From Okamejei kenojei (taxonomy: Eukaryota), in contig CM069132.1 in the NCBI GenBank assembly GCA_035221665.1, positions 117,738,001 through 117,802,000 on the forward strand: DNA of 64,000 nucleotides. The letters are read 5' to 3'. Positions 33,640 through 58,149 of the stretch are shown here, piece after piece; positions within the stretch are counted from its first letter, which is position 1; each line of letters starts with the position of its first letter. Made by a program: the position numbers and the translations under genes. A model generated the notes under the pieces. It did no database searches. It was not told the DNA's origin and worked only from the letters and a program-made list of their open reading frames with translations.

Positions 33640-34330
33640 GATATCAGAGGCTGCCATCAGCGCTTACGTTGCTTCCCACATGCATTCCTGGTGCAGAATA
33701 ATGCGTGTCTAGCTGTTGTGGTGACTTATGCCAACTTTTTGACTCCTTTAACCGCAGGGGCCAGAGTTGGGAATGTAATAAATCCAGGGTAATGCCAGGG
33801 TCTCGCCAGCCAGGAGTCGGTGGTTGGGGGGGGGGGGGGTAGCTAGTGTAGAGGTCCCGGGACAAGGTTGAACGACCGGGGCTGGTCATCCTAAGGGCAG
33901 CGCCGGGTAGTGCACGTCCTCGGTCCCAGCCGGACTGGCACTCCAGTGAAAGCGGGGGCCGCCGTCCAACAGGGTGTGGTGGGGGATTTGTAGTCGCTCC
34001 GTCTCTCAGCAAGGACTGGCGCCGCCTCCCCGTTGCCCGTCTGTAGAAAGTTGAGGGTGCATGCAGTCTGCGCTAACTTGTCCCATGGAAGCAGCCGATA
34101 GTTGAACGCCGATCTCTCTCAGCGGGGACATGTACCTCTACGGCCAGGAGGAGCCCGAAGAGGTAAGGAGGAGGGGGAGGGAGGGAGGGAGGGCAGGGAA
34201 TGAAAGTCCAAGCTTCAAGAGAACACCACAGACCCTGTCCCACTCTGGAATGGAGAAGCGGCCAGAGTCTGCACAGTTCAAGTATGCTCTCCTCCGTCAT
34301 TATTTCCCAGGGTGGCTCGCCGGAGGCACA
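33640..34330 (+). promoter_or_regulatory. CpG-rich island, candidate alternative CACNB2 promoter
   Basis: Local GC/CpG enrichment with no recognisable TE hallmarks, surrounding the candidate exon at 34130. Confidence 0.55.
34130..34162 (+). CDS. CACNB2: Candidate alternative first coding exon of CACNB2 (MYLYGQEEPEE), beta3/beta4a-like N-terminus
   Basis: ATG has G at -3 and an upstream in-frame TGA. 11 codons are followed by a phase-0 donor GAG|GTAAGG, in frame with the exon at 61994. The peptide resembles beta4a MYDNLYLHGIEDSEA. Confidence 0.65.
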
Positions 34331-34829
34331 CGCAATTGTTCAAGTGATTGATGAGAAATTAAGTGATAAAAGCCCAATAACTGTTGTTTTAATCATAACC
34401 TGCTGACTTGGGTGGGTGGGGGAACGAGTGCACAGCCCAAGTTAAAACAAAAACTGCTGGAAATACCCGGGAGAAAACGGATTCGAGCACAAATGCCTAA
34501 CCTGATGAGCAACTCCAGCATTTTCCTTTTCTATTTAAACTCTGCGCCCAACCATGTTAGATAAAGGCGACAAGCGGTTAAGATTTTTATCACAAAGAAA
34601 ACTTAAATACAAAATACCAGGCATGAGATAAATACTGTGGATTTTTGAAATCTAACGTGAAACGGGAACTCAACAGTAACTTGTGGACACAAGAGATTGT
34701 AGATGCTGAAATCTCGGGCAAAAAAAACCCCAATCTGGCGTAAGAACAAACTCTGTACTGAGAACAAACTCTGTACAGAGAGCACCTTTAATCAGGATCG
34801 AACCTGGATCTCTGGCATTGTAAAGCACC

Positions 34830-35400
34830 AACTCACCACTGTACGATAATACTGTACTGATACTGATAAATATAAAGCCAAACTGAAGTACAATCCGTAG
34901 AGCAAAGGGGAAGATGTAGAGTCTAGAATATAATTCTCAGCATTGCAGTGCAGTTCCAGAGACAACGTCCAATGTTCACATTGGGATAGAGGTGATCCGA
35001 CAGTATACTAGCTTATTGGAGGACTATTCAGAAGCTTGAAAATAACAGGGAACAATCTGTTCCTGAGTCTGGCCATGTGCGCTTTCAAGTTTCTGTATCC
35101 TCTGCCCAATGAAAGTAGGGACAAGTCTTTGATTATGTTGACTGCTTTTCCTAGGCAATGTGTGTCAGTGTGAAGAGCCTGGTCTGTGTGATGGACTGGG
35201 CAACATTTACAACACCCTGCAATGTCTTGCGGTCTAGGGCAGAGCTGGTCCCAAACCAAGCTGTGATGGCCCAAACAAAACCAACCACCCTGACAGCATG
35301 CTTTCTATGTGCATCCACAGCATATAAAAGTCTTTGGAGACATGCTGAATTTCTTCAGTCTTCTGAGGAAGTAGAGGCATTGGCGTGCCTTCATGGCTAT
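34830..35400 (-). mobile_element. Rex1/Babar-like LINE 3' relic
   Basis: ...GRGYRNLKAHMARLRNRLFPVIFKLLN, similar to the 6011 and 52472 ORFs. Confidence 0.7.
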
Positions 35401-35574
35401 TGCGCCAATGCTGAGATCTGGAGCAAAAGAACAAGCTGTTGAAGGAACTTGGGGTCAAACATCATCTGTAGAGGCAAAGGGGTAGTCGACCCTTTCTGGT
35501 CCAAAACCTATATCATGGCAAATTAGTAAATATTGGAAGAAAGCATGTTAACTTGTTGAGTTTCTCCAACAGAT

Positions 35575-35750
35575 AGACACAAAGTGCTGGAGCAAGTCAG
35601 CGGGTCAGGCAGTGTGAAGTCCGAAGAAGGGTCCTGACCTGAAATGTCACCTGTTCCTTTCTCCATAGATGCTGCACGACCCGCTTAGTTACTCCAGCAC
35701 TTTGTATCTATCTTTGGTATAAACCACCATCTCCAGTTCCTTCCTATGAA
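35575..35750. mobile_element. Penelope-like terminal repeat, inverted pair
   Basis: gacacaaagtgctggag...ccgaagaagggtcctgacctgaaatgtc...ctccagcactttgtatc. Confidence 0.7.
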
Positions 35751-37224
35751 GTTCTCCAGCAGCTTGCTTCTTGTGAGGATGGAAAAAATGATTTTATTTC
35801 TAGTTTTTTCTCCCATGTGTTGTCTGTGAACCAAATATTTTCTGAAGGGATATATTTTCTGCAGTTCGTATGCAACTCAATTGACCATTATTTATGAACC
35901 TACAGGACATTCTCAGCACTAGATCCAATGCTGCCAGGTCACATTCCAATCTTTATGAAAAGGTTCTTTTTCAATGCTGCATTATTATTAGAATGTAGAA
36001 CAGCACAGCAACAGGCCCTTCAGCACACAAAGCCTGTGCTTAACATGGTGCCAAGATAAACTAATCTGATCTGTCTGCACATGATCCATATCCCTTCACT
36101 CCCTGCAAATCCACGTGGCTATCTAAAAGCATTTAATGTATCTGCCTCCTCGCCCAATCTGGTATCCAACACCCTTTTAGTCTCTCATAATTTTATGTAC
36201 TTTCTATCAGATCACCATGCAACCTCTGGTGTTCCAGAGATAACAGTCCAAGTCTGTCCACACTATCTTTCCTCCAATATCCTCTAATCCAGGGATCATT
36301 CTGGTAAACCTTTTCTGCACTCCCTCCTATGCCTCCACATCCTTCTTGTGATGAATTAGGCCATTTGGCCTGTCAAGTCTACTCCACCATTCAATCATGG
36401 CTGATCTAACTTTCCCTCCTAACCCCATTCTCCTGCCTTCTCCCCAAAATCTCTGACACCTGAACTAGATGCAACACACCAAATGCAGTCTGACCAACTC
36501 CTTTAAAGCTGCATTATGACTTCCTGACTCTTATATTTGATGCCCTGACTTATAAACAAGCATATTATATGCATTTTTAATAGCAGTATTATTATAGTCA
36601 ATAGGGGGAACCGAGCTTTCCTCCTAAGAGCAAGGCAGCAATGATAACTGTGGTTCCCCAGCTGAAATAACTAATTTAGCATAGAGCAACAGGATTATGA
36701 GTGTTCTGTGCTTTCAGTTCGAAGTCTTAGTCTTCAAGCACCCTTTCCCCCTCAGCCAAGGGCTCTGCTGGTACACTGAAGGATATTGTAAATGTCAACC
36801 TTGATATCCACCTTCACATAGGGTCCACATTGTCCGGGATCTCACCATGACACTTCATTGTCCGAGCGTGGTATTTGTATAGTGGGCACAGGTTGATGGA
36901 AGCCGTCTGTTTTGTGAATGTTGTGTTTAAGGTCCATCATCTTCTTTGCTTCAGTGAATGAGTTGAAACTTGCCCTCTGAATGCAAGTGTTGCCCAAGTA
37001 CTGCTGTTCAATGACTAAGGCAAGGATGACGAATTGCACCCAGTTATTACAGGCCGCATTATCTGCATGCCTAACAACACACTTATGACGGTATCCATTT
37101 TGAGTTTTGGCATGAAGATATTCTCAGGAGGGAAGAATAGAAGCTTCAAGGATGTGGCCAAAGCCTTCCTGAGAATGAATTCTGACTAACTGCCAGGCCT
37201 CCCAGATCCAGGACCACCCAAAGT

Positions 37225-37655
37225 GGAAGAGAAAACAGGTCCTTCAGCCCACCGAGTCAATGCCAACCAGCGATCACCCAGTACACTAACACTATCGTAC
37301 ATGAATGGGACTATTTTACAACTAACTGAAGCCAATTTACTACAAACCTGTAGTATGGGAGGAAACCAGAGCACCCAGAAAAAACCCACGCCGTCACAGG
37401 GATAATAGACAATAGGTGCAGGAGCAGGCCATTCAGCAAGGAGCCAGCACCGCCTCGAGCCAGCACCGCCATTCAATGTGATCATGGCTGATCATCCACA
37501 ATCAGTACCCTGTTCCTGCCTTCTCCCCATATCCCTTGACTCCGCTATCTTTATGGACAATGTACAAACTCTATACAGATAGCATCCTTAGTCAGGATTG
37601 AACCAGGGGCTCTTGCACTGTAAGGCAGCAACTCTACCGCTGCTCCACTGTGGTT
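37225..37655 (-). mobile_element. HE1-type V-SINE interrupted by a CR1 tail (~37403-37552)
   Basis: The SINE core resumes at tgtacaaactc after the CR1 3' UTR piece. Confidence 0.75.
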
Positions 37656-38663
37656 GCCGTTCCTACGTTGGTCTCATCAGTTACCTTAAAGCCCACAAAA
37701 CTGGAAAAAAGCAAGTCATCCTCGAATCCAAGGAAAATTCAGAAGGAGAAGAATAGATTCAAGTACATATACTAACTGAATCACTGGAAGTGGCAACTCA
37801 AGCTCATCGTGCATGTGGATACTATAAGGTCAGGGTATAAGCTGCATGAGTATTATTGAAGAGTTAGTAACAAAGGGCTGTACAACTGATGAAATCTTTT
37901 GCTTGTCTTAAGATGGATGCTATAGAATATATGAGGAACACAGGAAGTTGAAGAATTTTCTCGTTTTTAGGAATAATTTCATAAGGAGTTCAAAATCTGA
38001 AAGGTTTTTGTGAGAGTACATAAAGATAAGCTCTTTAGAGAATTGCCACAGAAGAATGTGGAGGCCGTCAGTGGATATTTTTAAGGAAGAGGTAGATAGA
38101 TTCTTGATTAGTACAGGTGTCAGAGGTTATGGGGAGAAGGCATGAGAATGGGGTTTGGAGGGAGAGATAGATCCGCCATGATTGAATGGTGGAAGACTTG
38201 ATGGGCCGAATGGTCTAATTCTATTCCTATCACTTATGGCCTTATGACCTCTCCACTGACAGGAGATAAACTAATCAGAAGACACAAAATCTAAGGTATG
38301 GGTCCCATGATATGTAGCAAGCACACTTGTGCATTTGTCATTTGTTCACCATATGCGAATATAAATTTAATTCAAATGATTCCCTGGAAAGAATCTAGTA
38401 TCTCAAATCTAGTTAAAATAAAATTGGTGTGATTGATGATAAACAGATTGATCCAGAATTAGATCTGGATTTCTTTAAATATAGATCATTTGTATTTAGT
38501 GAACATCTGATCGAAACTGCCTGACATTGCTATCATCTGTGAACACTGTGAACAACTCTCACAGATGGAATGTGGAGTCTTCTGGCTGCTTCAATCAACT
38601 GTTCCTGGCACATTCAAAATGCGCGAACATCACACAACTTCTGACGTAAATAACTCTTCGACC

Positions 38664-38948
38664 TTTAGTTTAGTTTAATTTAGAAATCCTTTGACCGACA
38701 AAGTCCACACCGACCAGCAATCACCTGTACATTAATTCTATTCTACACACTAGGAACAGTTTACAGAAGCCAATCAAACTACAAACCTGCACATCTTTGG
38801 AGTGTGGGAGGAAGCCGGAGCACCCGGAGAAAACCCATGCGGTCACAGGCAGAAAGTACAAACTCTGTACAGACAGCACCCATAGTCAGGATCGAACCCG
38901 GGTCCCTGGGGTTGTAAGATAGCAACTCTACTGCTGTACCACTGTGTC
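38664..38948 (-). mobile_element. HE1-type V-SINE
   Basis: (TTTAG)n tail, intact V-domain, ggatcgaacccggg B-box. Confidence 0.9.
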
Positions 38949-40520
38949 GACGCTATTGATTTGTCAAAAAATACCCTGGATGATGTAAGTGATGGGGACC
39001 GCAATTGACAAGAGAAATCAGAAGATGAAGTGATGTTCTAGCCTATATTGTTTGAAATTTATTGTCACTGTATGACTCTAAAGAGAAATGGAATCGGATT
39101 CAATAATAATGGGAAAATAACAATGCAGAGCAATGGGGAGAAAATAGAGGAGGGGGGCTAATAGGTCATCTTTTTAAAAGTGTCTGCAGTGAACTCTTTG
39201 TACAGTGCTGATCTATGGAATAAACTGTTTAGGAAAGAACTGCAGATGCTGGAACAATCTAAGGTAGACAAAAATGCTGGAGAAACTCAGCGGGTGAGGC
39301 AGCATCTATGGAGGAGAGGATGTTGCTAAACTGTCTTTGGAGAGAGGAGGAGAACTTCTTCAAAGTAGACATACCTTAAGGGGATTTTGCAGTGGAGTAA
39401 ACAAAATGTTTAAGAAAGAATTGCATATGCTGGAAAATTCGGAGGTAGACAAAAATGTTGGAGAAACTCAACGGGTTTCCATATGGGTGAAATTGCTCAA
39501 GGAAAGTATGCAAGAGCTAAGTCAATGTAATGATAATTTGATGGAGCAAGGTGGTGGAAAAGTGGAAACAAGGAAGCTGTTTAACCCTAAACCTTGATTT
39601 CTCTCAAGATCAAGAAAGTACCATCTCAGCCTTGAATGTGTACTTGAAACACAGTTCATTTATATATTTATGTTGCAGATGTTATTTTTACCATGCTAGC
39701 ATTGATGAAAAACAGTACTGTTGCAAAAGGATGGGAGCAATTTTTTTTCAGAGATCAGCGCTCGAGATAGTGACCTGCTCTGCCAGATTTTCTAAGCATC
39801 TATTAAAAAACAATCAGTGAGTTTGGCGCACAGTGTTTTCCTGCTCTGTGTTGTCAAGATGCACAGCCCTACTGTCTTTTTGTATTGAAATAAAAGATTG
39901 TTGCAATGGAGGTTGCAGGAAAAACACTAAACATTGTCCAACTGGGTTACGCTGGGAGCTGACGGGAACAAGATTGACACAGTGCTCCAGTAAGAAGGCA
40001 GAAGACACCCGGGATCCGCCGTGCGGCTGCGGAAGGTCCCCGGAATGAGCCACGGAGCCGGGAATATGCCATGTGCCTCCTATCCAGGAGCCCCAGTAGC
40101 CGGATGAAGGTTGACCCAGTGGGCCGCCTGTGGCCACAAGCGGCTGCAGACCTGGCTCGCCGCTGTGAAGAAAGACTCTGCGGGTTGCGGCCTGTGGGGA
40201 GTATGCTCGGAAGCCGCCGAGCTCTGCCCCGAAAACCGGAGAGTGGAAGAGGAGGGAGATGCTGGTGAGAGGAGCGGGCCGGTAGGAGAGGGTCAAGGAA
40301 GGATTGCCATCAAGGTCAGCTGCAGGAGGCACCCCCTGATCACAGAGGCATTTGGGCGAGTAGAGGGACGTTGGATTCACAGGCCAAGCAGATTCAGGGC
40401 CATGCAGGAGGCCTTGAAGCAGCCTGGGTTTACCTGGATCGGGAGCCATTCCAAAACATCGAGCATGTGGACCACACTTTGGCCTTTTTGTTAATGGCAT
40501 CAAAATACGGGACTTTTGCC

Positions 40521-41602
40521 CAGTGTTGCAGTGCTAATTTTTTAGGTGCGGTAGCTGTCAAACAGGAGCGTCATTTCAGGTTTTGCTTGGTGGGGGGGGG
40601 GGGGGGGGGGGGGGGGGGAGAGGAAACTAGTCGAGGGTCAAACAAGATTATAGCCTATCAATACATCCCAGTATATAACTAGTACAATAAAACATATAAT
40701 ACTTACTTTAATAATATGACAAAATATTGCACGGTTGCATTCACTAATTATCATGAAATATAATTATCAAGCAAGTAAAGAAAAAGACAGTAATGATGTA
40801 TTTTACCAATTTACAAGTAATTACCTAGTTACCAAATGAGAAGTTTCACAGTAATTTCCTCAAAGGGTCAGGCGTAACATGTGTTTGGGTGTCTGAAGCA
40901 ACTCTTGTGGTCCTGGTGCAGGTGGGATGGTGAGGGTAGGGGGAGGTCTGTGTGGGGAAGGTGGTGAGGGAGGCTGGTCATGGGGTGGAGAGGCGGTGGG
41001 GTGTGTGTTGGGGTGCGGGGATCTATGTACTGTGGTTGGGGGTTTTTGTGGGGGGTCTCCCCGCGGACTCGGATCTCTCCCCCCATCCCCCCCCTCCCCC
41101 CGTAACGGGCAGCGCAGCTCCAGGAGCCGCCGCTACCGCACCTTCCCCATTGTTCCCCTCACAGTGTGGCGGTGGGGAATCGAACCTTCCCTCCCCTTCG
41201 CATCATATGGAAGATGCACTTGGTTGGGTGAGAAAGCGGGCATTGAATCCGCACCCAGGGCCTCCTCACCTAATTCTGTTCAGTAGTGAACGCGAGCAGC
41301 CCGCGTCTCCGGGAGGTGGAATATACAGAGTGCTGGCATCTATTTGGATGTTACAAACGGGTCTCTATGAATCGTTCTTATCACGACAAAGTATCAGGTT
41401 ACGCTCTATTGGCATTGAACCAGCTCAGATATTAATTTACCTAGTGATCACGGTAACATTTCACAACCATTGTGTTAATGAACAGATAATCAGTGTTAAA
41501 ATCCGCTGTTAGATTCCCCACTGGTTAAAATTCCCTGCTGTTTATTTTGGCTTTTTTTTTACAGAGGTGCCGGAGTGGCGCTCCGGCAGCACTGCACCCC
41601 TG
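40521..41602. mobile_element. Non-autonomous hAT-like element (1082 bp)
   Basis: TIRs cagtgttgcagtgct / agcactgcacccctg (13/15 match). 8-bp TSD cttttgcc (40513-40520) / cttgtgcc (41603-41610), 7/8 match. Confidence 0.8.
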
Positions 41603-41969
41603 CTTGTGCCTATGCAAAAAGGAATTTCACTGTGCAGTGCACACGTGACAATAAAGCACCATTGAACCCTCCTGCTTATTTTGTTCTGAACATTTATCCT
41701 CAGCCCTATACTTTTGAGGTATTGATGAAAATATATTTTCAGTGTTGTAGCTTCAATTGGCATTGAACCAGCTCAGATATTAATTTACCTAGTGATCACG
41801 GTAACATTTCACAACCATTGTGTTACACAACCTCAGCAGAAGGTAATTTAAGCTATAATATTGTACTGCTTAAGTTACAGTGTTAACCTAAGTTTGTTTT
41901 CTAAAACAATCAGTATTAACTTAAGCTAAAGTGTATTAGAGCTTACTGTATAGCTATTTGTGAGTGTAA

Positions 41970-42177
41970 AGGGTCTGTCCCACTTTCAAGACCTAATTCA
42001 CGACCTCTGCCGAATTTGCCCTTGACTCACACTCGCAGCATGGTCGTCACAAGGTCGTAATGCTAGTCGTAGGTACTCGTGGCATCAAGTAGGTCGGGGT
42101 GTTTTTTTCTAGCATGATGAAAAATGTCCACGAGTAAAAAAGGTTGTGAATTAGGTTGTGAAAGTGCGACAGGCCCT
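41970..42177. mobile_element. PIF/Harbinger-like MITE
   Basis: TIRs agggtctgtcccactttc... / ...gaaagtgcgacaggccct; 3-bp TSD TAA. Confidence 0.82.
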
Positions 42178-42882
42178 TAACCCTATAATGTAGGGTTTAC
42201 TGGGAGTGGAACCCTCATGAGGATGGTATTCTTTAAAATGTCCAAAGGAGACTGCATTCAACATTTTGTCTTTCACTTTCAATGACTTTCCAGAAACTGC
42301 TCAAAGTGTGAGGCATGAACTTCCTGAACCTCTCAAGTAAATCAGTCGGTCACAACAGTGACTGACGCATAATTATAAACTCTTGAAATGATACAATGGA
42401 ATGTTAGTATCCGGGTTATTGAAATGCGGATATTTAACTAAATCACAAGTCATTAATATCAAGGATGATCAGATTATCAATTTTATGGAGACTCAAGAAA
42501 CTGCAGATGCTGGAATCTAGAGCAAAAGATAAGGTGCTGGAGGCACTCAACGGGTAAGGCAAGATTTTAGGTCTGAACCCTTTTTCCTGATGATGCATGA
42601 TCCACTGGTTTCGTCCCGCACTTTGCCTTTTGCTCAGTTTATCAATTTTATGGTTTCACAATTTAGCAATTTTTTAATACTTGCTGCAGAAGAAACTGTT
42701 GTTTGCTGGAAATTACCTTGTTTCCAAAACGACCATGTTCTCACCGTTGTAGGAACTAGAATTCACAACGAGGGAGAATTATGAAAGCTTCTGACCTTCC
42801 GCTGATTAGTGACTTCCTGCTCTCTCCACATTGGTTGGTCTTTGCTCCTCTTCTCAAGAAAGAGATTATAGAGTTCCCTCCA

Positions 42883-42970
42883 TGCTGAAGAAGGGTCTCG
42901 ACCCGAAACGTCGCCTATCTCCTTCGCTCCTTAGATGCTGCTGCACCCGCTGAGTTTCTCCAGCTTTTTG
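42883..42970 (+). mobile_element. 88-bp Penelope-derived hammerhead-like module flanked by a 34-bp direct repeat
   Basis: tcttctcaagaaagagattatagagttccctcca at 42849-42882 and 42971-43004. CTGAAGA...GAAACGTC starts at 42885. Confidence 0.88.
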
Positions 42971-45317
42971 TCTTCTCAAGAAAGAGATTATAGAGTTCCC
43001 TCCAGGCCACAATATGATTTGGTTGCCAAAGTTAGATGGAATTTTAAACTCTAAATACTCAATTGTATGGACAAATATTGAAGTTGTTAGGCATATGTAT
43101 AGATGGATATTATTGAACACCTAATGCACCTTGATGGACCCTCTAGTCTTATTAGAAAGGTGGGAGTGTGGAAACAAAGTGGAATCTGGTCTGTGATTAT
43201 ATCATCAGGCCAGATACAGGGGCTTATGAATACTTCAGAGTTTTCTTGTAAATAATGGTGACTTCGTAAACATTGTACAGAACTTTCCCTCTGTAAATTC
43301 AATACATAGGGAGAGCCCGTTGTTTGGTCGAGAATTATGTGGAAGGATTGGGCTTGATATTTGACCATTTCTTGTTCTACTTCATCTAAGCATTAAATGT
43401 ATTGTTTGTCTGAACATTCCCGAGTTTGTTTGCAGATCATTCCCTCGGGAATTGTTACTTTCAATCAATAACATTTTATTTGTGTATGTGAACAATTTGT
43501 GTTGCATCATCTGGCCCTCTTGGCCGCAGATCCTTTTACAGCCTTTGTTGGGAACAGGGATGAAAGAGACAAATCTCTGAGATGATGTTCGTTAATGACT
43601 TGAAGTCAATGGAAATCCAGGAAAAAACTCCATCGGTTGATCCTGACTAGCACAAAGGCTGTGGTTGCTGTAGAGACAATTCTTTCTGCCGCAGGTTCTC
43701 TCTGGAGGATAGACACAAAGTGCTGGAGTAACTCAGCAGGTCAGGCAGCATCTCTGGGTAAAAGGAATAGGTGACGTTTCGGGTTGAGACCCCTCAGTGA
43801 GAGAGGGTGTTGCTGGAGTTCCTCAATCCTAGGCCAAGCTGCTTCATCTTGACCTTTCAAGAGTGAAGAATTGTGGAGGAAACAAACGTGGCTGTGGTAG
43901 TGAGTCCAGGTCAAAACATGGTTGTAGAGTTGGAAAGCAGGAATCAGAGACAGGGAGCAGCGATACTTGCCTCCAGTGACACTTGGCACTAGACCGAAAG
44001 AACTCCTATCTATATTCTTCAGGGATGCTGCCTGACCTGCTGAGTTACTCCAGCGCTTTGTGCCCTTTTGTGTTTTAACCAGCTTCGTTGTTTCTAGATA
44101 ATGAAGTAGCCTTAGCTGCACTAAGGCTACGGACCTTGAAAAATGAGGACATAAGAAAGGCATATCTCCTTAGATTAAATTCAGACCTAATATTTTCGGA
44201 GACTTGAGACTTGAACGTTGCAGGATGGTTGCAATGGAAGATGTTCGAATTTGCCGACTATTTCTGCGCTGTTTCTCACTTTTGCTTTTGTATGATTGTA
44301 GCCACATATCGTAAGATTTGGCTGGAGAGCACACAAAACAGGCCTTTCACTGTGTGTCGCATGTGACAATTATAAACTAAACTAGATTAAACTTCCACTA
44401 CCAAACCCTGCCACACAGCATTCATTCAATACAAGTCCCAGGCAATGATTGTTACCAACATAAGAAAGTCAAACCACTTCCTCAAGACATTTCTTTTAAC
44501 ATCCACTGAACCAAAATGTAATAGGTTCAGTTAATATTAAAGCAGATAGGTGGCTGGATATATTGAAATCACTGCCTTTTCTACTGACTCTCCATAACTG
44601 AGGGAACATAGTAGGGATGCACTATTAATTACATGGAGCATGAGGAAATAGGTAGGATTGGGCACAACTTGATATTACCCACTGTTAAGCAGCCACAATC
44701 TAAATATATCGATGATATATTTTATTTTGCTAACCTTCAAATAGCTATTTCAATTTCGTATTGTGAATAAAATAAATTATTACCACTCAGTAATGGAAAT
44801 AACCTGAGCATACAAATAACAGCGGGCAAAAACATGGAAACTCACATAAACATCTCCAACCTAATTCAGCTAAGTGTCTTACATCTTACAGTGTTCTCTT
44901 GTATTTTAAAATTATTTGTCTCCTGCAAAAGCCCCAAAGTTACTAATATCTTTGCAATTCTCCTTCTCAGTGTCAATCTAACTTCCATTTTAATAAGACA
45001 AAAATGTGTAAGAACTCATGTACCCTCAATACCAAATGCAGTTGAAAGTACTGCCATCTCCTATATAACATTTCCAGCTTTGGTATTTTGCCAGTGCATA
45101 TGATGAAAAATAATTCTATTGATGAATATAAACAGGATATTCAGCAGTGAAGTCCATAATCGCCAAGGTGGATTATTTAGATGGTTAGGTTTTTAAACAA
45201 GGGATGTAGGCAGCAATGCTCAAATAAAACTGTGACAAAGTCAGAGATTTTTATCTTGAGATGAACATAAGCAATCTGTGCAAATGGATTAATGGTGTGA
45301 ACCATCTTCATCATCTC

Positions 45318-46222
45318 GGCATGGTGGCGCAATGGTAAAGTTGCTGCCTCACAGCTCCAGAGACCCGGGTTCGATCCTGACCTCGGGTGATGTCTGAGCG
45401 GAGTATGCATATTCTCGCTGTGACTGAATGGGATTCCTCCCACATCCCAAAGATATATGGGTTTGTAGATTAATTGTAGATTATAATCACCCTGAGTATG
45501 TATGGGATAACTAGTGTGAATGGGTTATTAATGGTTGGCGTGAACTCGGTGAGCCAAAGGGCCTGTTTCCATGCCGTATCTCTAAACTAAACTGAAAACT
45601 CAACAAACTTTGAGTCTGGCAAGCTGATATTATCAGCATATTATTTCCAATTTCTAACAATTGAGCCATTCCTAAAACATTATCATTCAGTCAGTGATAA
45701 AAAAGAAACTGCTGGAAACATTGGTGGCACCGTAGCACAGCTAGTAGAACTACTGTCTACAGAGACCCAGGAGCAATCCTGACCTCAGGTGCTGCCTGTG
45801 TGGAGTTTGCCCATTGTCTCTGTGACCACACAGGTCTCCCCCTGATGCTACAGCTTCCACCCACTTCCTCAATATGTAGGTTGGTAGGTTAACTGGCCAC
45901 TATAAATTGTTCCTAGTGTACAGGTGAGTGTTTAGTTTAATTTAGAGATATAGTATGGAAACAAGCCCTATGGCCCATCGAGTACACGCGACTATGATCA
46001 CCCATAGACCAGTTCTATCCTAGACACTAGGGACAATACCCAGAAGCCAATTAACATACAAACTTGCACATCTTTGGAATGTGGGAGGAAACTGGAGTAC
46101 ACGGAGAAAACCCTCACATTCACAGGGAGAACGTACAAACTCCGTACAGACAGCACCCTTAGTCAGGATCAAATCCAGGTCTCTGGCGCAGTAAAGCAGC
46201 AACTGTGCCGCTGGGCCACCCT
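45318..46222. mobile_element. Cluster of three HE1-type SINEs (+45318-45592, +45725-45930, -45931-46222)
   Basis: tRNA-like heads, V-domain pieces and (CTAAA)n tails. The last two copies are tail-to-tail. Confidence 0.85.
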
Positions 46223-47084
46223 GTTGAATCTGGGAGGATGTGAATTTAAGCTTGGTGTGGACTTGTTAGACTGAAAAGTCAAAGAAAGGTACAACACATA
46301 AACTAATTCTACTGATGTGCGCCATTTCACAGAACTCTGCCTGTGCAACAGTTATTCATGTGTGAGCCCAGGGATGAATATTAACAGGATATTCAGCAGT
46401 GACGTCCATCATAGCCATTTCCAGTCAGACCTTTCATCAAAACGACAAAAAATGTTTTAAGTTACTAAGTTAACAACAATTAAGTTAAGGTTATTCGGTC
46501 CATAATGCAACATATAATGTTTTGATAGCCATGGAAATCAAATTGATCCTGTTAAATCGTCAAAAATATTTCACTATTGAGAGAGCTTTTTCAGACATTC
46601 CAAATAACCCTAGACAGTCTTGCATAAGATCCTTTTTAAATGTACGTTTATCTGGGAATTCACCCACAGTCCTGGAATCTTATTTATTTGAGCAATCCAG
46701 GCAAGTCAAATGTAGAATTAGGGAAAGTTATGTTTACACAGTGAGCGACTGATTTAAGCTGTGAGAATGTTAAAAAAGGAACAGTTCTAACTGAGCTAAA
46801 CAATAGGATGTGCATTATTTGTGCATTGCAAGGTGATGTAGTGATTTGCACTGATGAATGCATTTGCATGGGTGCTAGTGAAGGAACACAGGCCTACACT
46901 ATCAGGCTGCTGTTGAGTTTAGGCTCGGATGCTGGCAGTCAGCCACAACTGCAAAGCTTGGAATGCTCAAAAATATTTGGCTAGAGATCGCAGTGATTTG
47001 TTTTCTCGATTAACATGGGAAACAATTGAAGATAGAAAACTAAACTGCTGTGCAGGAAGCCGTTACTGTTTCTTCTCATGTGGA

Positions 47085-47540
47085 TGTGGAGAGGATGTTT
47101 CCACCAGAGGTCATAGCCTCAGAATAAAAGGACGAACCTTTAAGGGCCTGGCCCACTTGGGCATCATTTGCGCGTCACGCAGATGGTGCGCAAAGATTTT
47201 GTACATCCCAAAATCCTGGGGCGCCGCATGCGACCTTGCGTCACTGCCTACATCACCACGCATCATGTGCGCGTCACCACGCACGCCCAAGTGGGACAGG
47301 CCCTTTAGAAAGGATGATGAGGAGGATTTTTTTAGCCAGATTGTGGTGAATCCTTGGAATTCATTGGCAAAGACTTCTGTGGAGGCTAAGTCATTGGGTA
47401 TTTATAAGGTGGAGATTAACATATACTTGATTGGTAAGGGTGTCGACGCTTATGGGTATAAGGCCGGAGAATAGGGTTGAGAGGGAAACGTAGGCATGAT
47501 TGAATGGTGGAGTAGACTTGATGGGCCAAATGGCCTGCTT
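47085..47540 (+). mobile_element. CR1 3' fragment interrupted by a MITE
   Basis: TRGHSLRIKGR...FFSQIVVNPWNSL. Confidence 0.8.
47143..47304. mobile_element. PIF/Harbinger-like MITE (162 bp)
   Basis: TIRs agggcctggcccacttgggc / gcccaagtgggacaggccct; TSD TTA at 47140-47142 and 47305-47307. Confidence 0.88.
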
Positions 47541-48039
47541 CTGCTCCTGTGACTTATGAACTAATTTACATTTACTTTTTTCTAATTTAAAGCACAAACC
47601 TTGGAAATCTATGCAACTCTTTCAAATCTGAACAGGAATAAATTCCATTATTCTGCTCACAATAATTTGATCACTTGTTTTCTTGAATAGAACATTCCCA
47701 GTGTAAACCAGCATCTGCCATTGCTTCTTACACATTCCTAATGTCTTAAATGCCCAGACTCGATCATAGTGCTTATTGGTTTGTCATCACTGATTCTAAG
47801 ACTAGTGTTTTCTCCTATTTTCCCTGGATTTCAATTTAAACTTGATCTCCTTTATGCCACACTGTGCCTAATACTATCATACTACCAACTACAGTCATTT
47901 TCACTTCACTGTTTAGTTAATCTCTTACTTCAGTGCATAAGGTAAGGCTGTGATGAGGTCTGAAGCCGAGTAGTTCTGGCAAAAACTCAAACTATGCACC
48001 AGCAAGTAGTTCCTGGCGGTGCCAGATTATAGCAATGGG

Positions 48040-48770
48040 AAATTCCACGCGACATGGCAAATGGTGGAGCCCTGGAGAGTGTTGCAGAACAGATCTAGGA
48101 ATACAGGAGCATGGTTCCCTGAAAGTGGTGAGTCAGGTGGACAACATGATGAAGGCGGTATTTGGCACATTTGCCTTTAATGGGAAAGGTATTGAGTACA
48201 AGTGGGTTCATCATATGCGGCTGTGTAAGTTGTTGGGAGACCACACCTGGAGTACTGTGTGCGGTTATGATTACCCAGCAGAAGGAAGGATGTCATTAAG
48301 TTGGTGGAAATGGTGCTATCGAGATTCATTTAGATGTTGCTTAGGGTTGCAGATTTGATTTAATTGGATGGATTGGATAGGCTAGCATTTGTTCTTTGGA
48401 ACATAGGAGGATGAGGGGTGTCATTGACGTATATGAGATTTATGAGGGGCATTGATGAAGTGAACATTCATAGTCTTTTTCTCAAGGTGGAGGATTAGAA
48501 AACAAGGGCACAAGGTTAGGGTGAGAGGGGAGATATTTAAGAGGGATGTCAAAGGGCAATGTTTTCACTCAGAGGTTCGTATCTGGAATTAGCTGCCAGA
48601 GGAAGCCATATAAGTGAATACAGTTACAATTTTGGACATATGTAGGGGTTTATAGGACTATGAGCCAAATGCTGGCAAATAGGTCTTGCCCAATGTGCCA
48701 ACTTGGACTGCATAAATGAACAAGGTGGGCCAAAGGGCATGTCTTTGTGCTGTATGACTCCATGACTCTA
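48040..48770 (+). mobile_element. Old CR1 3' relic
   Basis: DLGIQEHGSLKVVSQVD; atgactccatgactcta tail. Confidence 0.75.
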
Positions 48771-50061
48771 AGAAGTTTAATTAAAACAATTACTGTTTTG
48801 CAATTTTAATTCTACATTTGTTACATTCATTGATTGTAAGTGTCTTAGCTGCTCTAGTTGGATTTGAATTACTGTAAGTTCTCTTGATCATCTTTGCATG
48901 CCGCTTGATTTTTATTCAAATATCCATGCTAATATTTCCCAGTGTAACGACTTAATGAAGCCACTCTCATCAACAAGGCCCAAGGCCAACCTTAAAATAG
49001 GTCTCAAGACTTATTAACATGCAAAATGCAAACAGCTGGAAGGGACGTAGCAGATCAGGCAGCAGGGTGGTCGATGTTCGGATTGAGACCCAGCATCTAG
49101 TCTTGGTGCCGGCCTGAATCGCATTTCCACTTATTGCACCAAACTTTAATCAAGAATCTTAAAATTAGTGTTTTTCTTTAATTATGTAAATAAGACATCA
49201 AGTTCCATTCATAGGCAGCTTATAGAAAATGGCCTGGTCCATTATCTGCACGACAGACTGTCCGACTAAGCCTTAGGGTGGAAGATGTACATCTCATCTT
49301 GCTGGCTTTGCAGTCATAAAACACACACAATAAGGTCTTGTTTCTACTCTTGTGAGTCCAACGGGTTATAAATCCAGGCATTCGACTTGGATTACCCAGT
49401 TCAACGGTGACAACGGTTTTGCCAATAAATGATGGCTCTTCTGATGATGCCCAATACCTGTAAAGTAAACCAATTAAAAAAACAATCAAAATCTTATGGA
49501 AGCCTCACCTAGCGCATTAATAAGGCAAGTGAACTTTATCTAACACTTGACAGTGTTTAGTAGAACAAAGAACATTGAAAAGTACAGCACAGGAACACGC
49601 CCTTTGAATCACGAAGTTTGTGCCGAACATGATGCCAAGATAAACTAATCTCATCTGCCAGCATATGATCAATATCCCTCCACTCCCTGCATATTCACAT
49701 GCCTAACTAAAAGCCTCTTAACGTCCACTATCGTAGCTGCCTCCTTGACTACCCCTGGCAGAGCGTTCCAGGCACCCTGTGTGTAAAAAAAAAAGCCCCA
49801 AAACTTCTTTAAACTTTGGCCCTCTTACTTTAAAGTTATGCCCTCCAGTCTTTGATATTTCCACCATGGGAGTTATTTCTGACTATCTATCCTATCTATG
49901 CCTCTCATAGTTGTATATGTTTCTAGCAGATAATTGACATGGGGTGGGTACAATACTACAGCCACAGAGATGTTACTGGCTGTGCAGGGTGACATCAATT
50001 GGCAAGTGATGGATGATCATAACCTAAATGCACAACAATAAACTAAACTAAACTATGATCA

Positions 50062-50625
50062 ATGTTTAAGAAGGAACTGCAGATGCTGGAAAATCGAAGG
50101 TAGACAAAAATGCTGGAGGAACTCAGCGGGTGAGACAGCATCTGTGGAGCGATGTTTTGGGTCGAGACCCTTCTGCAGACTGATGTGAGGATGGGGGAGG
50201 GGGCGGGAAGAAGAAAGGAAGAGGCGGAGACAGTGGGCTGAGGGAGAGCTGAGAAGGGGAGGAGAAAGCAGGGACTACCTGAAATTAGAGAAGTCAATGT
50301 TCATACCACTGGGGTGTAAACTGTCCAAGCGAAATACGAGGTGCTGCTGTTCCAATTTATGGTGGGCCTCACTCTGGCCATGGAGGGGGCCCAGGACAGA
50401 AAGGTCAGATTCGGAATGGGAGGGGCAGTTGAAGTGCTGAGCCACCGGGAGATCAGGTTGGTTATTGCAAACCGAGCGGAGGTGTTGGGAGAAGCGATCG
50501 CCAAGCCTAGGTTTGGTCTCACCAATGTAGAGCAGCTGACACCTAGAGCAGCGGATGCAATAGATGAGGTTGGAGGAGGTGCAGGTGAACCTCTGCCGCA
50601 CCTGGAAAGACTGCTTGCGTCCTTG
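50062..50625 (-). mobile_element. Penelope-like element 3' part: GIY-YIG endonuclease plus terminal repeat
   Basis: FTCTSSNLIYCIRCSRCQLLYIGET...RFSQHL...VAQHF...GMN is a PLE GIY-YIG signature. A degenerate hammerhead-like motif follows at ~50150-50180. Confidence 0.92.
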
Positions 50626-50785
50626 AATGGAAACTATGATCAACATTGTTTGCATGTTGTAAATGGCACTGGAGATGGTCTTCATTGAGGTTGCCATTCT
50701 TTCTATTTAAAGTTTCAAAGAATGAGAATAGACACAAAAAGCTGGAGTAACTCAGCGGGACAGGCAGCATCTCTGGAGGGAAGGA

Positions 50786-51290
50786 ATCAGATTTTATTCG
50801 CCAAGTATGTTTTGCAACATACGAGGAATTTCACTGGCCAGGTCAGTCATACAATTAAAAGCAACAGACTCAAAAACGGGACAATTTTGACTCCCGTAGC
50901 CGTCGCGTTCGGGCCCTCCGCATCGAGGCGATCCGCTCCTGCATCGGGGGGGGGTTGTCAGCTCCCGATGGCGATCGAACCTCGCATTGAGGCTGGTCGA
51001 ACCTTCTGCGGCAATGGAGCTCCCGACTAGCCTCTCCCGAGACTGCGAGCCCTTGATGGTAAGTCCACAGGCCGTGGTGGGAGCGATCCCATGCAAGGGA
51101 TCTGCTCCGATGTTAAGTCCGCGCCCCGCGGTGGGGCTCACGACAGTCCGAGGAGGCCTCCAACTCCAGTGATGGTTGGCCGCAGAGCCCTGAGAATGTG
51201 ATCCGAAAATTGATCACATCTCCGGGAAGGTAAGAACTTGAAAAAAAGTTTCCCTCGATCCCCTTGCTATCCCCCACATAAAACATCTGC
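50786..51290 (-). mobile_element. Unclassified GC-rich non-autonomous element splitting a Penelope terminal repeat (50728-50785 / ~51318-51422)
   Basis: Minus-strand AATAAA-bearing tail similar to 51870-51905. The PLE repeat continues on both sides. Confidence 0.5.
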
Positions 51291-52189
51291 CATCTCCCCG
51301 GCGCCCCTGGTTCAAATGGTTGATGTTTCGGGTCGAGACCCTTCTTCTGCCTTTCCCGCTGAGTTACTCCAGCTTTTGTGTCCATCTTCGGTTTAAACCA
51401 GCTTCTGCATTTCCTTCCTACACATTTCAAAGAATGAGAGGTTATCTGGATATCTAGAACTTTATGGCTCTCTTCATCTTGACTTTGATTTCAAGCTTAA
51501 TCATTTATTTGATAATCACCTTGCCCATCTGATTCCAAGATTCTCAGACCACCCCTTAATCCACCCTCCTAGTTATGTCCACTTCCCCTATTGCTCCTGT
51601 GGGCCCCATATATTCTTTATTCACTGTGGTGATGGTGAACTAGGAAGGAAGCATTTGTGTTATCAGGGTCTAATCATTCGACAGTTGGATAGGATATTTT
51701 AGCCTCCAGTCCTTACTGCAAGCTGGCTTGATCTACCACACTGCACTTCAGTGTATAAAATAATTCCTTGAAGCATTCATGGGCCATTGTCTTGCACCTA
51801 ATGTTTTATGTTTTATTCTTAATGGTTTACGGTTTGTCGCGTTGTTAATTGCGAGCGGAGCACCAAGGCAAATTCCTTGTATGTGTACATACTTGGCCAA
51901 TAAACTTATTCATTCATTCATTCAATCATAAACTTATTCATGCATTCATTCACCTGTCATCCACTGAGTGTTTGCCCCTGCAGTTTCATGCACATTGTGA
52001 TTGTGCTGCACGGTTGCAGCTTCCATCCTTGGTGTTGAATAGCACATTAATTGTGTATTATGCAAATGCAATAATTTATTTCAAAATATTTGTACTTTGT
52101 AAGTTACCAGAACATTTAAAATTTCCTGCCAATGCTAGCATGTATTGCTCAAACCCAATTGCATCATTATGGCTGTCCTTCTGCTGGAT

Positions 52190-53040
52190 CAAATCAAATC
52201 AAAATACGTTTTATTGTCATTGCACAGCAACTGTACAATGAAATTTCATGTGCATCTCCTTCAATGGTAAACAATAAAAGACACAGGATAAAAAGATTAA
52301 AAAGAACAAAACCAAATAACACAAACAACCATTTACTCTCACATTAACATTTACCGCAAGATCAATGCATAAAATAAGTAATAGATAATAAAAATTATGT
52401 ACATTATATTGCACATTCCAGCAGACAAATTTTTATAATGCACCCCAAATTGTGTAATGTTGCCCCTAGTATTATCTGTTTGAGTTAAGTTCTCTAATGG
52501 CACGTGGGTAGAAACTGTTAGTTAGTCTGCAAGTGCGGGCCTTCAAAGACCCGTATCGCCTCCTAGAGGGCAGCAGAGTGAAAAGATGGTTGGCAGGGTG
52601 GGATGTGTCCTGTGTGGTGTTTGTCACCCGACGTAAACATCGGGCCTTGTAAATGTCTTCCAGGGAGGGTAGTTGAGTGTTTGTGATGCTCTGTGCTGTT
52701 TTAATAACCCGCTGTAGTGCCTTCCTTCCAGCCACAGTGCAGCTAGCAAACCACACCAGGATGCCATAGGAGAGGATGCTTTTCACGGCGCACCGGTAGA
52801 AGGACAGCAGCAGCTGCTGTGAGACGTTTGCTCTCCGCAGAGTCCTCAGGAAATATAGCCGCTGCTGTGACTTCTTTACGAGAGTGATGGTGTTCACTGT
52901 CCATGTAAGGTCCTGGGAGATGTATGTGCCCAGGAACTTAAAGTCAGTGACTCTCTCCACCATGTCTCCTTTGATGTAAAGAGGAGCAGGTTCCTCTCTC
53001 CTCCTCCTGAAGTCAATAACCAGTTATTTTGTTTTGGACA
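52190..53040 (-). mobile_element. Rex1/Babar-like LINE 3' part
   Basis: ORF 52472..52963: FKFLGTYISQDLTW...QQRLYFLR...NSFYPRAIRELN; (ATTTG)n tail. Confidence 0.9.
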
Positions 53041-53503
53041 CTTCCATGTTGGAGAGCGAGTTCAATTATGTAGATCCAGTGATGTTGAAGAAATTATACA
53101 TATTTCCAAATCATAATGGTGTATGACATGGAGAAGAGACGATAGGTGGTGATGTTCCTGTGTTACCTGAAGGCCTCGTCGTTTATGGTGATGGAGGTGT
53201 TGACTTTGGGAGGTGTTGGAGTAAACTAAGTGAACAACTGCAGTGTATTTTGTAGATGTAGAACATAGTATAGTGGATCACAGGAATAGGTTCTTCAGCC
53301 CACAATGTCAGTGCTGAACATGACACAGTTAAATTAATCTGAAAGCAGCTTAAATGCCACTATCGTGTCTGCCTCCACCACTATGACAGCATATTGCAGG
53401 CACTCATCTCATGTGCAAAGAAAACTGGCCCTGCTCATCTCTTTTAAACTTTGCCCCTCTCACTCTGAAGCCATGGCTTTTAGTCTTCGACTTTTCCCAT
53501 CCT

Positions 53504-54653
53504 AGAAACATAGAAACATAGAAATTAGGTGCAGGAGTAGGCCATTCAGCCCTTCGAGCCTGCACCGCCATTCAATATGATCATGGCTGATCATCCAACT
53601 CAGTATCCCGTACCTGCCTTCTCTCCATACCCTCTGATCCCCTTAGCCACAAGGGCCACATCCAACTCACTCTTAAATATAGCCAATGAACTGGCCTCAA
53701 CTACCCTCTGTGGCAGAGAGTTCCAGAGACTCACCACTCTCTGTGTGAAAAAAGTCTTTCTCATCTCGGTCTTAAAGGATTTCCCCCTTATCCTTAAGCT
53801 GTGACCCCTTGTCCTGGACTTCCCCAACATCGGGAACAATCTTCCAGCATCTAGCCTGTCCAACCCTTAAGAATTTTGTAAGTTTCTATAAGATCCCCTC
53901 TCAATCTCCTAAATTCCAGAGAGTATAAACCGAGTCTATCCAGTCTTTCTTCATAAGACAGTCCTGACATCCCAGGAATCAGTCTGGTGAACCTTCTCTG
54001 CACTCCCTCTATGGCAATAATGTCCTTCCCCAGATTTGGAGACCAAAACTGTACGCAATACTCCAGGTGTGGTCTCACCAAGACCCTGTACAACTGAAGT
54101 AGAACCTCCCTGCTCCTGTACTCAAATCCTTTTGCTATGAAAGCTAACATACCATTCGCTTTTTTCACTGCCTGCTGCACCTGCATGCCTACTTTCAATG
54201 ACTGGTGTACCATGACACCCAGGTCTCGCTGCATCTCCCCTTTTCCTAATCGGCCACCATTTAAATAATAGTCTGCTTTCCTGTTTTTTGCCACCAAAGT
54301 GGATAACCTCACATTTATCCACATTATACTGCATCTGCCAAACATTTGCCCACTCACCCAGCCTATCCAAGTCACCTTGCAGTCTCCTAGCATCCTCCTC
54401 ACAGCGAACACTGCCCCCCAGCTTAGTGTCATCCGCAAACTTGGAGATATTGCCTTCAATTCCCTCATCCAGATCATTAATATATATTGTAAATAGCTGG
54501 GGTCCCAGCACTGAGCCCTGCGGTACCCCACTAGTTACTGCCTGCCATTGTGAAAAGGACCCGTTTACTCCTACTCTTTGCTTCCTGTTTGCCAGCCAGT
54601 TCTCTATCCACCTCAATACTGAACCCCTAATACCGTATGCTTTAAGTTTGTAT
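53504..54653 (-). mobile_element. Young CR1, near-identical to 29215-29903
   Basis: GVPQGSVLGP and FADD motifs; tagaaacata tail; candidate TSD atcct at 53499-53503 and 54691-54695. Confidence 0.93.
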
Positions 54654-56009: not shown

Positions 56010-56082
56010 GCCTGGATAGCACAGTTGGTAGAGCATTAGAGTTTTAATCTGAGGGTCTAGGGTTCATGTCCCTGTTCGGTCA
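56010..56082 (+). pseudogene. tRNA-Lys(TTT) pseudogene or degenerate gene
   Basis: GCCTGGATAGCACAGTTGGTAGAGCATTAGAGTTTTAATCTGAGGGTCTAGGGTTCATGTCCCTGTTCGGTCA has about 9 substitutions from canonical vertebrate tRNA-Lys(UUU), including breaks in the D and acceptor stems. No CCA; TTTT at 56088-56091. Confidence 0.88.
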
Positions 56083-56304
56083 TTCACTTTTGGTACATGG
56101 ATAGGCCAGGTTCGGAGGGATATGAACCAAATGCAGGCAGGTGGGACTAGTGTAGCTGGGACATGTTGGTCGGTGTGGGCAAGTTGGGCCGAAGGGCCTG
56201 TTTCCACACTGTATCACTCTATGACTCTATCATAGGGGAAATTGATGCAATGTCAAGCTACCCTCTGTCGTGAGCTTCCTCTGGAAGGAAGAAAGTCCTG
56301 GAGA

Positions 56305-57590: not shown

Positions 57591-58149
57591 GGAGAGGAAC
57601 AACAGTCCAAGGGACATCTGGATGGGGGCAACGGCTGTAACAGGCCTTGGCCAGCTGCAGTTGGGATTGTGACATGGCACTAAAACTTGGCGACTCTTGC
57701 ATATTGCATGTGGGGTGTTTTTATGCATTAAGTACTTAACCGGGGATTGTACTTATATTACAATAGTCTTACTGATCTGTATGCAAAAAAAAACAATTTC
57801 ACTGTACCTTGGTGCACATGATATTATTAGGAACATTGAACCATTCATTTGGTTCATTATGTTTCATTGATTATTGAACAACACTTTCAATTTAGGATTG
57901 GTGGGAAACATTTCCCCGTACTGAGGTAAAGCCCATTGCATTAATTGGCATTAAATAGCTAATCAGATCGATGTGTCGAGGTTTGTTCATGTTGCCATGG
58001 AGATGTGGCAGATGCATGAGATACCTGTTGTCCTCTGCAGGTTCTTTACACGTTGACCAGCACAACAAACCTAAGGTGGATAGAAATAAAATAAATATGT
58101 TAGAATTTTGTTGTAGTGTGGTTACTTTGTAAACTGAATCCTACCACAA

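What the first reader, a model, noticed from the sequence alone, without database searches (positions are those of the whole stretch)
34130..34168. Candidate beta3/beta4a-like first exon in a CACNB2 gene
Seen: inside a CpG-rich island, ATG TAC CTC TAC GGC CAG GAG GAG CCC GAA GAG|GTAAGG, with an upstream in-frame stop and a phase-0 donor. Splicing to 61994 gives [22 protein letters not shown]. Known: beta4a begins [26 protein letters not shown] and beta3 begins MYDDSYVPGFEDSEA-GSADS, while mammalian beta2a-e N-termini are unlike this. Inference: an ancestral short acidic N-terminal exon predating the vertebrate duplications was kept in elasmobranch CACNB2. It would give a cytosolic, non-membrane-anchored beta2 isoform and so probably different channel inactivation from beta2e. 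That could matter for electroreceptor CaV1.3 function, which is speculative.
Basis: partly seen in the sequence, partly recalled or inferred. Interest (0 to 1): 0.78.

Follow-up and report, generated by a model that had tools for sequence, protein, structure and literature searches.

The report
Ancient short start of calcium-channel subunit
A skate-like fish gene for a helper subunit of calcium channels has a tiny alternative first exon that is real and old: it is already known from zebrafish, and its sister copies open the other three subunit genes, so it corrects an evolutionary label rather than revealing a new mechanism.

Summary
The exon is there as described: 34130-34162, MYLYGQEEPEE, donor GTAAGG, single-copy, between the beta2b and beta2e first exons of an intact CACNB2. 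Contigs of 4 of 4 laid runs stop exactly at the donor and run on elsewhere, but the junction to 61994 was not read. It is not elasmobranch-specific. The same 11-residue start opens database CACNB2 isoforms of sawfish and skate (10/11 identical), sturgeons, teleosts, frogs, newt, squamates, turtle and platypus; an eroded form occurs in one cat. It is zebrafish beta2.1 exon 1, cloned in 2008 and called teleost-specific (PMC2365960). It therefore predates the four vertebrate genes. The peptide is acidic, with no cysteine or basic cluster, so it most likely gives a cytosolic beta2 (faster inactivation than beta2a or beta2e; inferred). The electroreceptor link is unsupported; two papers lean against it. 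I found no paper stating the four-paralogue homology, but several key papers could not be read. The scan's earlier notes held nothing on this. Verdict: known kind, modest interest.

The parts
33870..34129 (+). Small CpG-rich promoter / 5' UTR of the alternative first exon; contig 5' ends at 33952, 34046, 34067 and 34076 suggest starts in this stretch
   Evidence: GC 0.63, CpG o/e 0.78; single copy; contig ends (contigs cannot prove a start)
34061..34105 (+). Upstream ORF in frame with the exon (ATGs at 34061 and 34085, stop TGA 34103-34105)
   Evidence: a 4-base deletion at 34058 in two relatives' runs removes the first ATG
34130..34162 (+). Coding part of the alternative first exon, 11 codons, MYLYGQEEPEE
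   Evidence: 10/11 identical to Pristis and Rhinoraja CACNB2 starts; rank 2 of 526,656 with a beta3/beta4a profile
34163..34168 (+). Phase-0 splice donor GTAAGG
   Evidence: 4 of 4 laid runs have a contig whose match ends at 34162
34163..61993 (+). 27.8-kb intron to the first constitutive exon (inferred)
   Evidence: orthologous proteins join this start directly to GSADS; junction not read in this species
61241..61309 (+). Competing beta2e-type first exon MKATWIRILKRAKGGRLKNSDLC, donor GTAAGA
61994..62113 (+). First constitutive CACNB2 exon ([11 protein letters not shown]...EKAK)
   Evidence: remaining exons found downstream in the genome

Best explanation
This is a working alternative first exon of CACNB2 with its own small CpG-rich promoter. 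It is spliced in phase 0 to the GSADS exon and caps CaVbeta2 with an 11-residue acidic N-terminus. It is the orthologue of zebrafish beta2.1 exon 1 and the paralogue of the beta3 and beta4a first exons and of a matching exon in non-mammalian CACNB1: one exon of the ancestral vertebrate CACNB gene, copied with the gene. Shown: sequence, position, single copy, homologues. Strongly indicated: splicing. Inferred: lacking the cysteine pair of beta2a and the basic cluster of beta2e, the isoform stays cytosolic, so channels carrying it inactivate faster and are more PIP2-sensitive than with beta2a or beta2e; promoter choice therefore switches a tissue between anchored and unanchored beta2, as zebrafish heart appears to do between embryo (beta2e type) and adult (this exon).
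For: 71 stored CACNB2 proteins, 27 of 142 distinct beta2 N-termini, carry this type of start: Pristis, Rhinoraja, Polyodon, Acipenser, teleosts, frogs, Pleurodeles, Tiliqua, Crotalus, Pelodiscus, platypus, and an eroded MCDDGSEHSEV in Neofelis. Zebrafish beta2.1_tv1 (ABY19301.1) and tv2 begin MYLSTSEESDL, tv5-7 begin with the beta2e type; four tv1 clones came from 5' RACE. 20 beta1, 11 beta3 and 45 beta4 stored proteins carry the paralogous start. In this genome the exon sits upstream of CACNB1 (C31:9608670, MKVEMYLHGLDDVEV, GT donor) and CACNB4 (C7:17565800, MYDNLYLHGFDDSEA, GT donor), 20/33 and 19/33 bases identical to the window exon. A tree without the exon recovers beta1, beta2, beta3, beta4 as separate groups (SH-aLRT 98-100) with beta3+beta4 joined (99), so carriers lie in all four. 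Contigs of 4 of 4 runs, 2 studies, match up to 34162 and carry 446-2796 further letters, with no cover of 34164-34457. Peptide: 0 K/R, 4 D/E, 0 C versus 7 K/R in beta2e. Anchored versus cytosolic beta gating: PMC9662827 passages, PMC4672716 passages.
Against: The 34162-61994 junction was not read: the two ends lie further apart than the 20-kb limit, and the tool skipped a repeat at 34163-34206, warning that reads seem cut there and that loose ends dropped there are mostly false; two of the four runs are marked 'probably DNA' and none is on record as RNA. Most orthologues are predicted database models. No shark or chimaera CACNB2 with this start was among the 120 listed hits of either targeted search. 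The window peptide has Q6 and P9 where most homologues have S (S9 in 31 of 35). An in-frame upstream ORF could dampen translation. The tree is the quick search, without bootstrap, on 35 rows that I chose, and leaves beta1 and beta2 unresolved at the base. In snail CaVbeta the N-termini had little effect on inactivation and the HOOK exon mattered more (PMC3972191). Localisation and gating were not tested.
Confidence: 0.85

Rival explanations
1. The exon matters less for gating than as a protein-binding tag: like the beta3 and beta4a A domain it binds synaptotagmin I (or another acidic-motif partner) and ties beta2- and beta1-containing channels to vesicle release sites.
For: Synaptotagmin I binds beta3 and beta4a but not beta4b (review passages, PMC4672716). 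The batoid start aligns over its whole length with the solved beta4a A domain 2d46. Y2, acidic 7-8 and acidic 10 are kept across all four paralogues, more than a neutral spacer would need.
Against: The four residues MYDN/MYDD of beta3/beta4a are absent; the codon four upstream is CTC. S9 is P in batoids. Zebrafish adult heart rather than brain expresses tv1. No binding test was run.
Confidence: 0.2
2. An elasmobranch retention that tunes CaV1.3 in electroreceptors.
For: Paddlefish ampullary organs express Cacnb2 (PMC5429088). No CACNB3 was found in this assembly, so these exons may supply the beta3-like form.
Against: Present in zebrafish and Xenopus, which PMC5429088 calls non-electroreceptive (abstract), and in reptiles. 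Skate ampullary data are reported to point to Cavbeta1; sawfish rostral skin reportedly lacked Cacnb2 expression.
Confidence: 0.07
3. A decaying or barely translated relic in this species, or a chance ATG-plus-donor in an intron.
For: Upstream ORF in frame; loss of the conserved serine; 30 chance-level ATG-donor candidates exist in the window; junction not read.
Against: 10/11 identity with two other batoid orders' or families' models, 0 differences over 96 and 87 bases in two relatives' runs, intact donor, single copy, rank 2 of 526,656.
Confidence: 0.05

Closest known systems
Zebrafish cacnb2a (beta2.1) exon 1, transcript variants tv1/tv2 (ABY19301.1, ABY19302.1; Ebert et al. 2008, PMC2365960)
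   Same: Same gene, 11 codons, ATG-bearing first exon joined directly to GSADS, upstream of the beta2e-type exon, acidic, 5/11 identical.
   Different: The paper called it teleost-specific and, in the parts read and by term search, did not link it to beta3 or beta4a. Cyprinids can also start four codons earlier (MFIDMYLS..., NP_001410748.1); the window cannot (CTC).
Batoid CACNB2 RefSeq models XP_051871813.1 (Pristis pectinata X3) and XP_078272568.1 (Rhinoraja longicauda X4)
   Same: MYLYGREEPEE joined to GSADS; 10/11 identical.
   Different: R for Q at position 6; predicted models with no functional data seen.
CaVbeta4a and CaVbeta3 first exon (A domain; PDB 2d46, 7mix)
   Same: Right-aligned at the phase-0 donor: YL(H/Y)G-x-acid-acid-x-E; no lipid or basic anchor.
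   Different: 15 residues starting MYD with L at position 5, where beta1 and beta2 have the M that starts the 11-residue form; S before the last acid is P here; different genes.
Mammalian beta2a-e N-termini
   Same: Same series of mutually exclusive first exons; beta2a, beta2b and beta2e orthologues flank this exon in the genome.
   Different: None resembles it in sequence (other beta2 starts score at most 2.2 against a profile on which platypus scores 28.6 and clouded leopard 13.8).
CaVbeta 'exon 2 / B form' of Dawson et al. 2014 (PMC3972191)
   Same: States that a short first exon at this position is shared by molluscs and vertebrates and groups beta2a, b, e, beta3, beta4a there.
   Different: A positional class; says vertebrate beta1 bears only exons 1a/1b, which the non-mammalian CACNB1 exon found here contradicts. 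A human CACNB1 exon 1b at that position has since been reported (PMC12963491); I did not see its sequence.

Membership tests
Orthologue of zebrafish beta2.1 exon 1 | Lies in CACNB2 | tested here: met
   (exons 93-99% identical to skate CACNB2 where boundaries are clean)
Orthologue of zebrafish beta2.1 exon 1 | ATG-bearing 11-codon exon upstream of the beta2e-type exon | tested here: met
   order on C2: beta2a, MLV-type, beta2b, this exon, beta2e, GSADS exon
Orthologue of zebrafish beta2.1 exon 1 | Sequence similarity bridged by intermediates | tested here: met
   5/11 to zebrafish, 6/11 to paddlefish, up to 8/11 to a frog; mean score 25.7 against non-batoid starts
Orthologue of zebrafish beta2.1 exon 1 | Spliced directly to the GSADS exon | tested here: inconclusive
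   contigs stop at 34162 in 4 of 4 runs, junction letters not shown, repeat caveat; orthologous proteins show the join
beta3/beta4a-type first exon | [ML]Y[LI]xGx[DE][DE]S[DE]x motif ending at a phase-0 donor | tested here: met
   commonest residue at 7 of 11 columns over 35 distinct starts, S9 replaced by P; rank 2 of 526,656
beta3/beta4a-type first exon | 15-residue length beginning MYD | tested here: not met
   11 residues; codon four upstream is CTC. It is a paralogue, not a beta3 or beta4a exon
beta3/beta4a-type first exon | Binds synaptotagmin I | not tested
   property taken from review passages
Membrane-anchored beta2 (beta2a) | N-terminal cysteine pair for palmitoylation | tested here: not met
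   0 cysteines
Membrane-anchored beta2 (beta2e) | Polybasic N-terminus | tested here: not met
   0 K/R, 4 D/E versus 7 K/R in the beta2e exon of this window
Cytosolic beta class (beta2b, beta2c, beta3) | Cytosolic localisation and fast inactivation when co-expressed | not testable with these tools
   inferred from PMC9662827 passages

The most novel reading that the evidence does not exclude
All four vertebrate CaVbeta genes inherited one acidic first exon that encodes a protein-binding module (synaptotagmin-I type). Jawed vertebrates up to monotremes keep it in beta2, and up to turtles in beta1; it eroded in placental beta2. Non-therian beta1 and beta2 channels would then have a vesicle-docking form that the mammal-based beta nomenclature misses, and skates, in whose assembly CACNB3 is not found, would rely on it.
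Probability: 0.2. Interest if true: 0.6.

Novelty: new member of a known kind. Interest (0 to 1): 0.33.

Why it matters
It corrects two statements in print: that this zebrafish beta2 exon is teleost-specific (PMC2365960) and that vertebrate beta1 has only the long N-terminus (PMC3972191). It shows that the beta3/beta4a start is an ancestral exon once shared by all four genes, which gives natural variants (11 versus 15 residues, S versus P) for testing what the beta4a/beta3 N-terminus does. It also warns that fish, amphibian and reptile channel physiology modelled with mammalian beta2a-e omits a native isoform. It does not reveal a new mechanism.

Tried and rejected
Run search: no RNA holder listed on record; no evidence either way. 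Invertebrate origin: none of the 150 listed representatives showed an MY-acidic start on reading them, but the query carried a beta2e start, so this search did not favour such starts; an origin before vertebrates is neither shown nor excluded. Internal-exon reading: a pyrimidine tract plus CAG ends at 34122, but that exon would be 40 bases (frame-shifting) and contigs run unbroken across it; rejected as main form. Second candidate first exon at 51014: lies in a repeat with 5224 candidate copies; rejected. Bird orthologue: only a peacock model ending HLYSGSSPEEN, score 2.2; not counted. Exons 1A, 1B and 2A of CACNB2 were not found in the 200 kb upstream of the window; presumably further away. 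Careful tree did not finish; quick tree used. No structure or complex prediction was run: an 11-residue tail would not be informative and no synaptotagmin sequence was in hand. Papers not held: Vendel 2006, Helton 2002, Ebert 2008 on beta4, Takahashi 2003, Buraei and Yang 2010 and 2012, Bellono 2017. Figures and the .ppt supplements of PMC2365960 could not be seen; they hold the exon alignments and may bear on the novelty claim. The scan's earlier findings held nothing relevant.

Full report
Observation. The exon at 61994-62113 follows an AG and its named best database hits are CACNB2. The later exons lie downstream in the genome, the last one 98.8% identical to skate CACNB2 proteins, so the gene is intact and the genome skate-like. 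ATG plus donor is common (30 candidates in the window). The peptide is not: a profile built only from beta3 and beta4a starts ranks it 2 of 526,656 six-frame positions over 264 kb, the only one of the top 8 with both ATG and GT donor; a beta1-only profile also ranks it 2. The surrounding 296 bases are single-copy. The CpG-rich stretch is real but small (o/e 0.78 over 300 bases against 0.40; not flagged in 500-base windows).

Position. On contig C2 the CACNB2 first exons run beta2a (117646730), a hydrophobic MLV-type exon (117665314), beta2b (117736308), this exon (117772130), beta2e (117799241; window 61241-61309), then the GSADS exon (117799994), each with a GT donor in phase 0.

Expression. 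Eleven runs were listed, none on record as RNA; I laid 4 of the 5 guessed to be RNA. In 4 of 4 runs (2 studies, 2 coded organisms) one contig begins at 33952, 34046, 34067 or 34076, matches to exactly 34162 and carries 996, 2796, 1088 or 446 further letters; depth is zero from 34164 to 34457. That is what a spliced first exon gives. Against: the tool skipped a repeat at 34163-34206, says reads seem cut there and that loose ends dropped there are mostly false, and marks two runs as probably DNA. The junction itself was not read.

Orthologues. Two searches with the N-terminal 40-46 residues of a frog and a turtle isoform (120 listed of 2722 and 2931 hits) and two cluster look-ups gave 71 CACNB2 proteins with this type of start, 27 of 142 distinct beta2 N-termini stored. 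They include Pristis and Rhinoraja (MYLYGREEPEE), Polyodon, Acipenser, many teleosts, frogs including Xenopus tropicalis, Pleurodeles, Tiliqua, Crotalus, Pelodiscus and platypus (MYLYGTEDTDG). One placental model, Neofelis X9 (MCDDGSEHSEV), scores 13.8 on a non-mammalian profile where 79 other starts average -12.6 (sd 4.6, max 2.2): probably an eroded copy, but one predicted model only. No shark, chimaera, crocodile or clear bird CACNB2 example was among the listed hits; lists are cut at 120 and cluster representatives hide isoforms, so this is not absence. Zebrafish beta2.1_tv1 and tv2 begin MYLSTSEESDL and tv5-7 begin with the beta2e type. Ebert et al. 2008 (PMC2365960; parts 1-4 of 8 read, term search; figures and supplements not seen) recovered four tv1 clones by RACE, could not find exon 1 in mammals, Xenopus or chick and called it possibly teleost-specific; by elimination exon 1 is this exon. 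They report tv1 in adult heart and tv6 in brain and embryonic heart.

Paralogues. The same start opens 20 stored CACNB1 proteins (sharks, sturgeon, eels and relatives, caecilian, turtles), 11 CACNB3 (frogs; human MYDDSYVPGFEDSEA from PDB 7mix) and 45 CACNB4 (one unrelated beta4 start dropped from the count). In this genome it lies upstream of CACNB1 (C31:9608670, MKVEMYLHGLDDVEV, two in-frame ATGs) and CACNB4 (C7:17565800, MYDNLYLHGFDDSEA). Shark beta1 and cyprinid beta2 have 15-residue forms whose fifth residue is the M that starts the 11-residue form; beta3 and beta4a mostly have L there. A quick IQ-TREE tree of 35 proteins that I picked, with the exon trimmed from the vertebrate rows and batoid proteins standing in for the window's gene, recovers the four paralogues (SH-aLRT 98-100) and beta3+beta4 (99), with beta1 and beta2 unresolved. 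Presence in all four is most simply explained by one exon in the pre-duplication gene (inference). No CACNB3 was found in this assembly: all matches of three searches fall on C2, C7 and C31. An origin before vertebrates was not shown.

Mechanism. Shown: the peptide has no cysteine, no basic residue and four acids, against seven basic residues in beta2e. From papers: beta2a and beta2e are membrane-anchored and slow inactivation, while cytosolic beta2b, beta2c and beta3 give faster inactivation and higher PIP2 sensitivity, and an N-terminally deleted beta2 behaves as cytosolic (PMC9662827, passages; PMC4672716, passages); swapping the beta3 N-terminus onto beta2a gives beta3-like kinetics (cited in PMC2365960). 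Inferred: this exon yields a cytosolic beta2 under its own promoter, a switch away from the anchored forms (0.85 for the exon and its ancestry; the gating step is untested). Caveats: the same review says most unanchored betas behave alike, and snail data put more weight on the HOOK exon (PMC3972191, abstract, passages and section 3 read). A rival adds a binding role: synaptotagmin I binds beta3 and beta4a and the batoid start aligns fully with the beta4a A-domain structure 2d46; untested. A short upstream ORF may lower translation.

Electroreceptors. PMC5429088 (passages) finds Cacnb2 in paddlefish ampullary organs but says skate sequencing suggests Cavbeta1; PMC11057056 (one passage) says Cacnb2 was not expressed in sawfish rostral skin while also listing it among expressed subunits; bioRxiv 10.1101/274449 (passages) has no CACNB mention. 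The exon's presence in zebrafish, Xenopus and reptiles argues against an electroreceptor specialisation.

Novelty. The exon is cloned in zebrafish and modelled in RefSeq for batoids, so it is a new member of a known kind. Dawson et al. 2014 already treat a short first exon at this position as ancestral, but as a positional class, and state that vertebrate beta1 lacks it; a human CACNB1 exon 1b is now reported (PMC12963491, passages). Five searches showed no paper stating the sequence homology across all four paralogues. I recall, without having read it here, that Vendel et al. 2006 ascribe A-domain variety to two duplications of a gene with several alternative exons; that paper and others were not held, so the claim of absence from print is weak. 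PMC12034931 and the other listed papers were seen as search listings only. Interest 0.33.

Noticed in passing
G000:C2:117665314 (L024), upstream of the window: A hydrophobic 27-residue CACNB2 first exon (MLVGLLLVFTTLHVAMLKTPKAKNVSW, GT donor), also in Narcine, frogs and a mouse record. It is not one of beta2a-e; its hydrophobic-then-basic make-up suggests a third way of membrane anchoring.
   Followed up: partly
G000:C31:9608670 (L038): CACNB1 carries the paralogous exon with two in-frame ATGs (15 or 11 residues) in a CpG-rich stretch (o/e 0.90), directly after an acceptor-like tttcag. If skate electroreceptors use beta1, this isoform is the one to check.
   Followed up: partly
G000 whole assembly: No CACNB3 found; all matches fall on the CACNB1, CACNB2 and CACNB4 loci. 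Loss or assembly gap not distinguished.
   Followed up: partly
window 34061-34105: In-frame upstream ORF; its first ATG arises from a TGCA tandem that two relatives' runs lack, while the second ATG and stop are unchanged in all four runs.
   Followed up: partly
window 34111-34122: Pyrimidine tract plus CAG seven bases before the ATG, an acceptor-like site; some database beta4 models use the beta4a exon internally (P0236).
   Followed up: partly
P0262 (XP_058537754.1, Neofelis nebulosa): Possible eroded placental copy of the exon, MCDDGSEHSEV.
   Followed up: partly
window 50876-51150 and about 12196-12603, 19624-20353: CpG-rich repeat with thousands of copies; near-identical reverse-transcriptase-like reading frames occur twice in the intron (LINE-like by recall).
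   Followed up: partly
UniRef records: Many proteins named 'beta-3' there have the beta4a sequence; names are unreliable for this isoform.
   Followed up: yes
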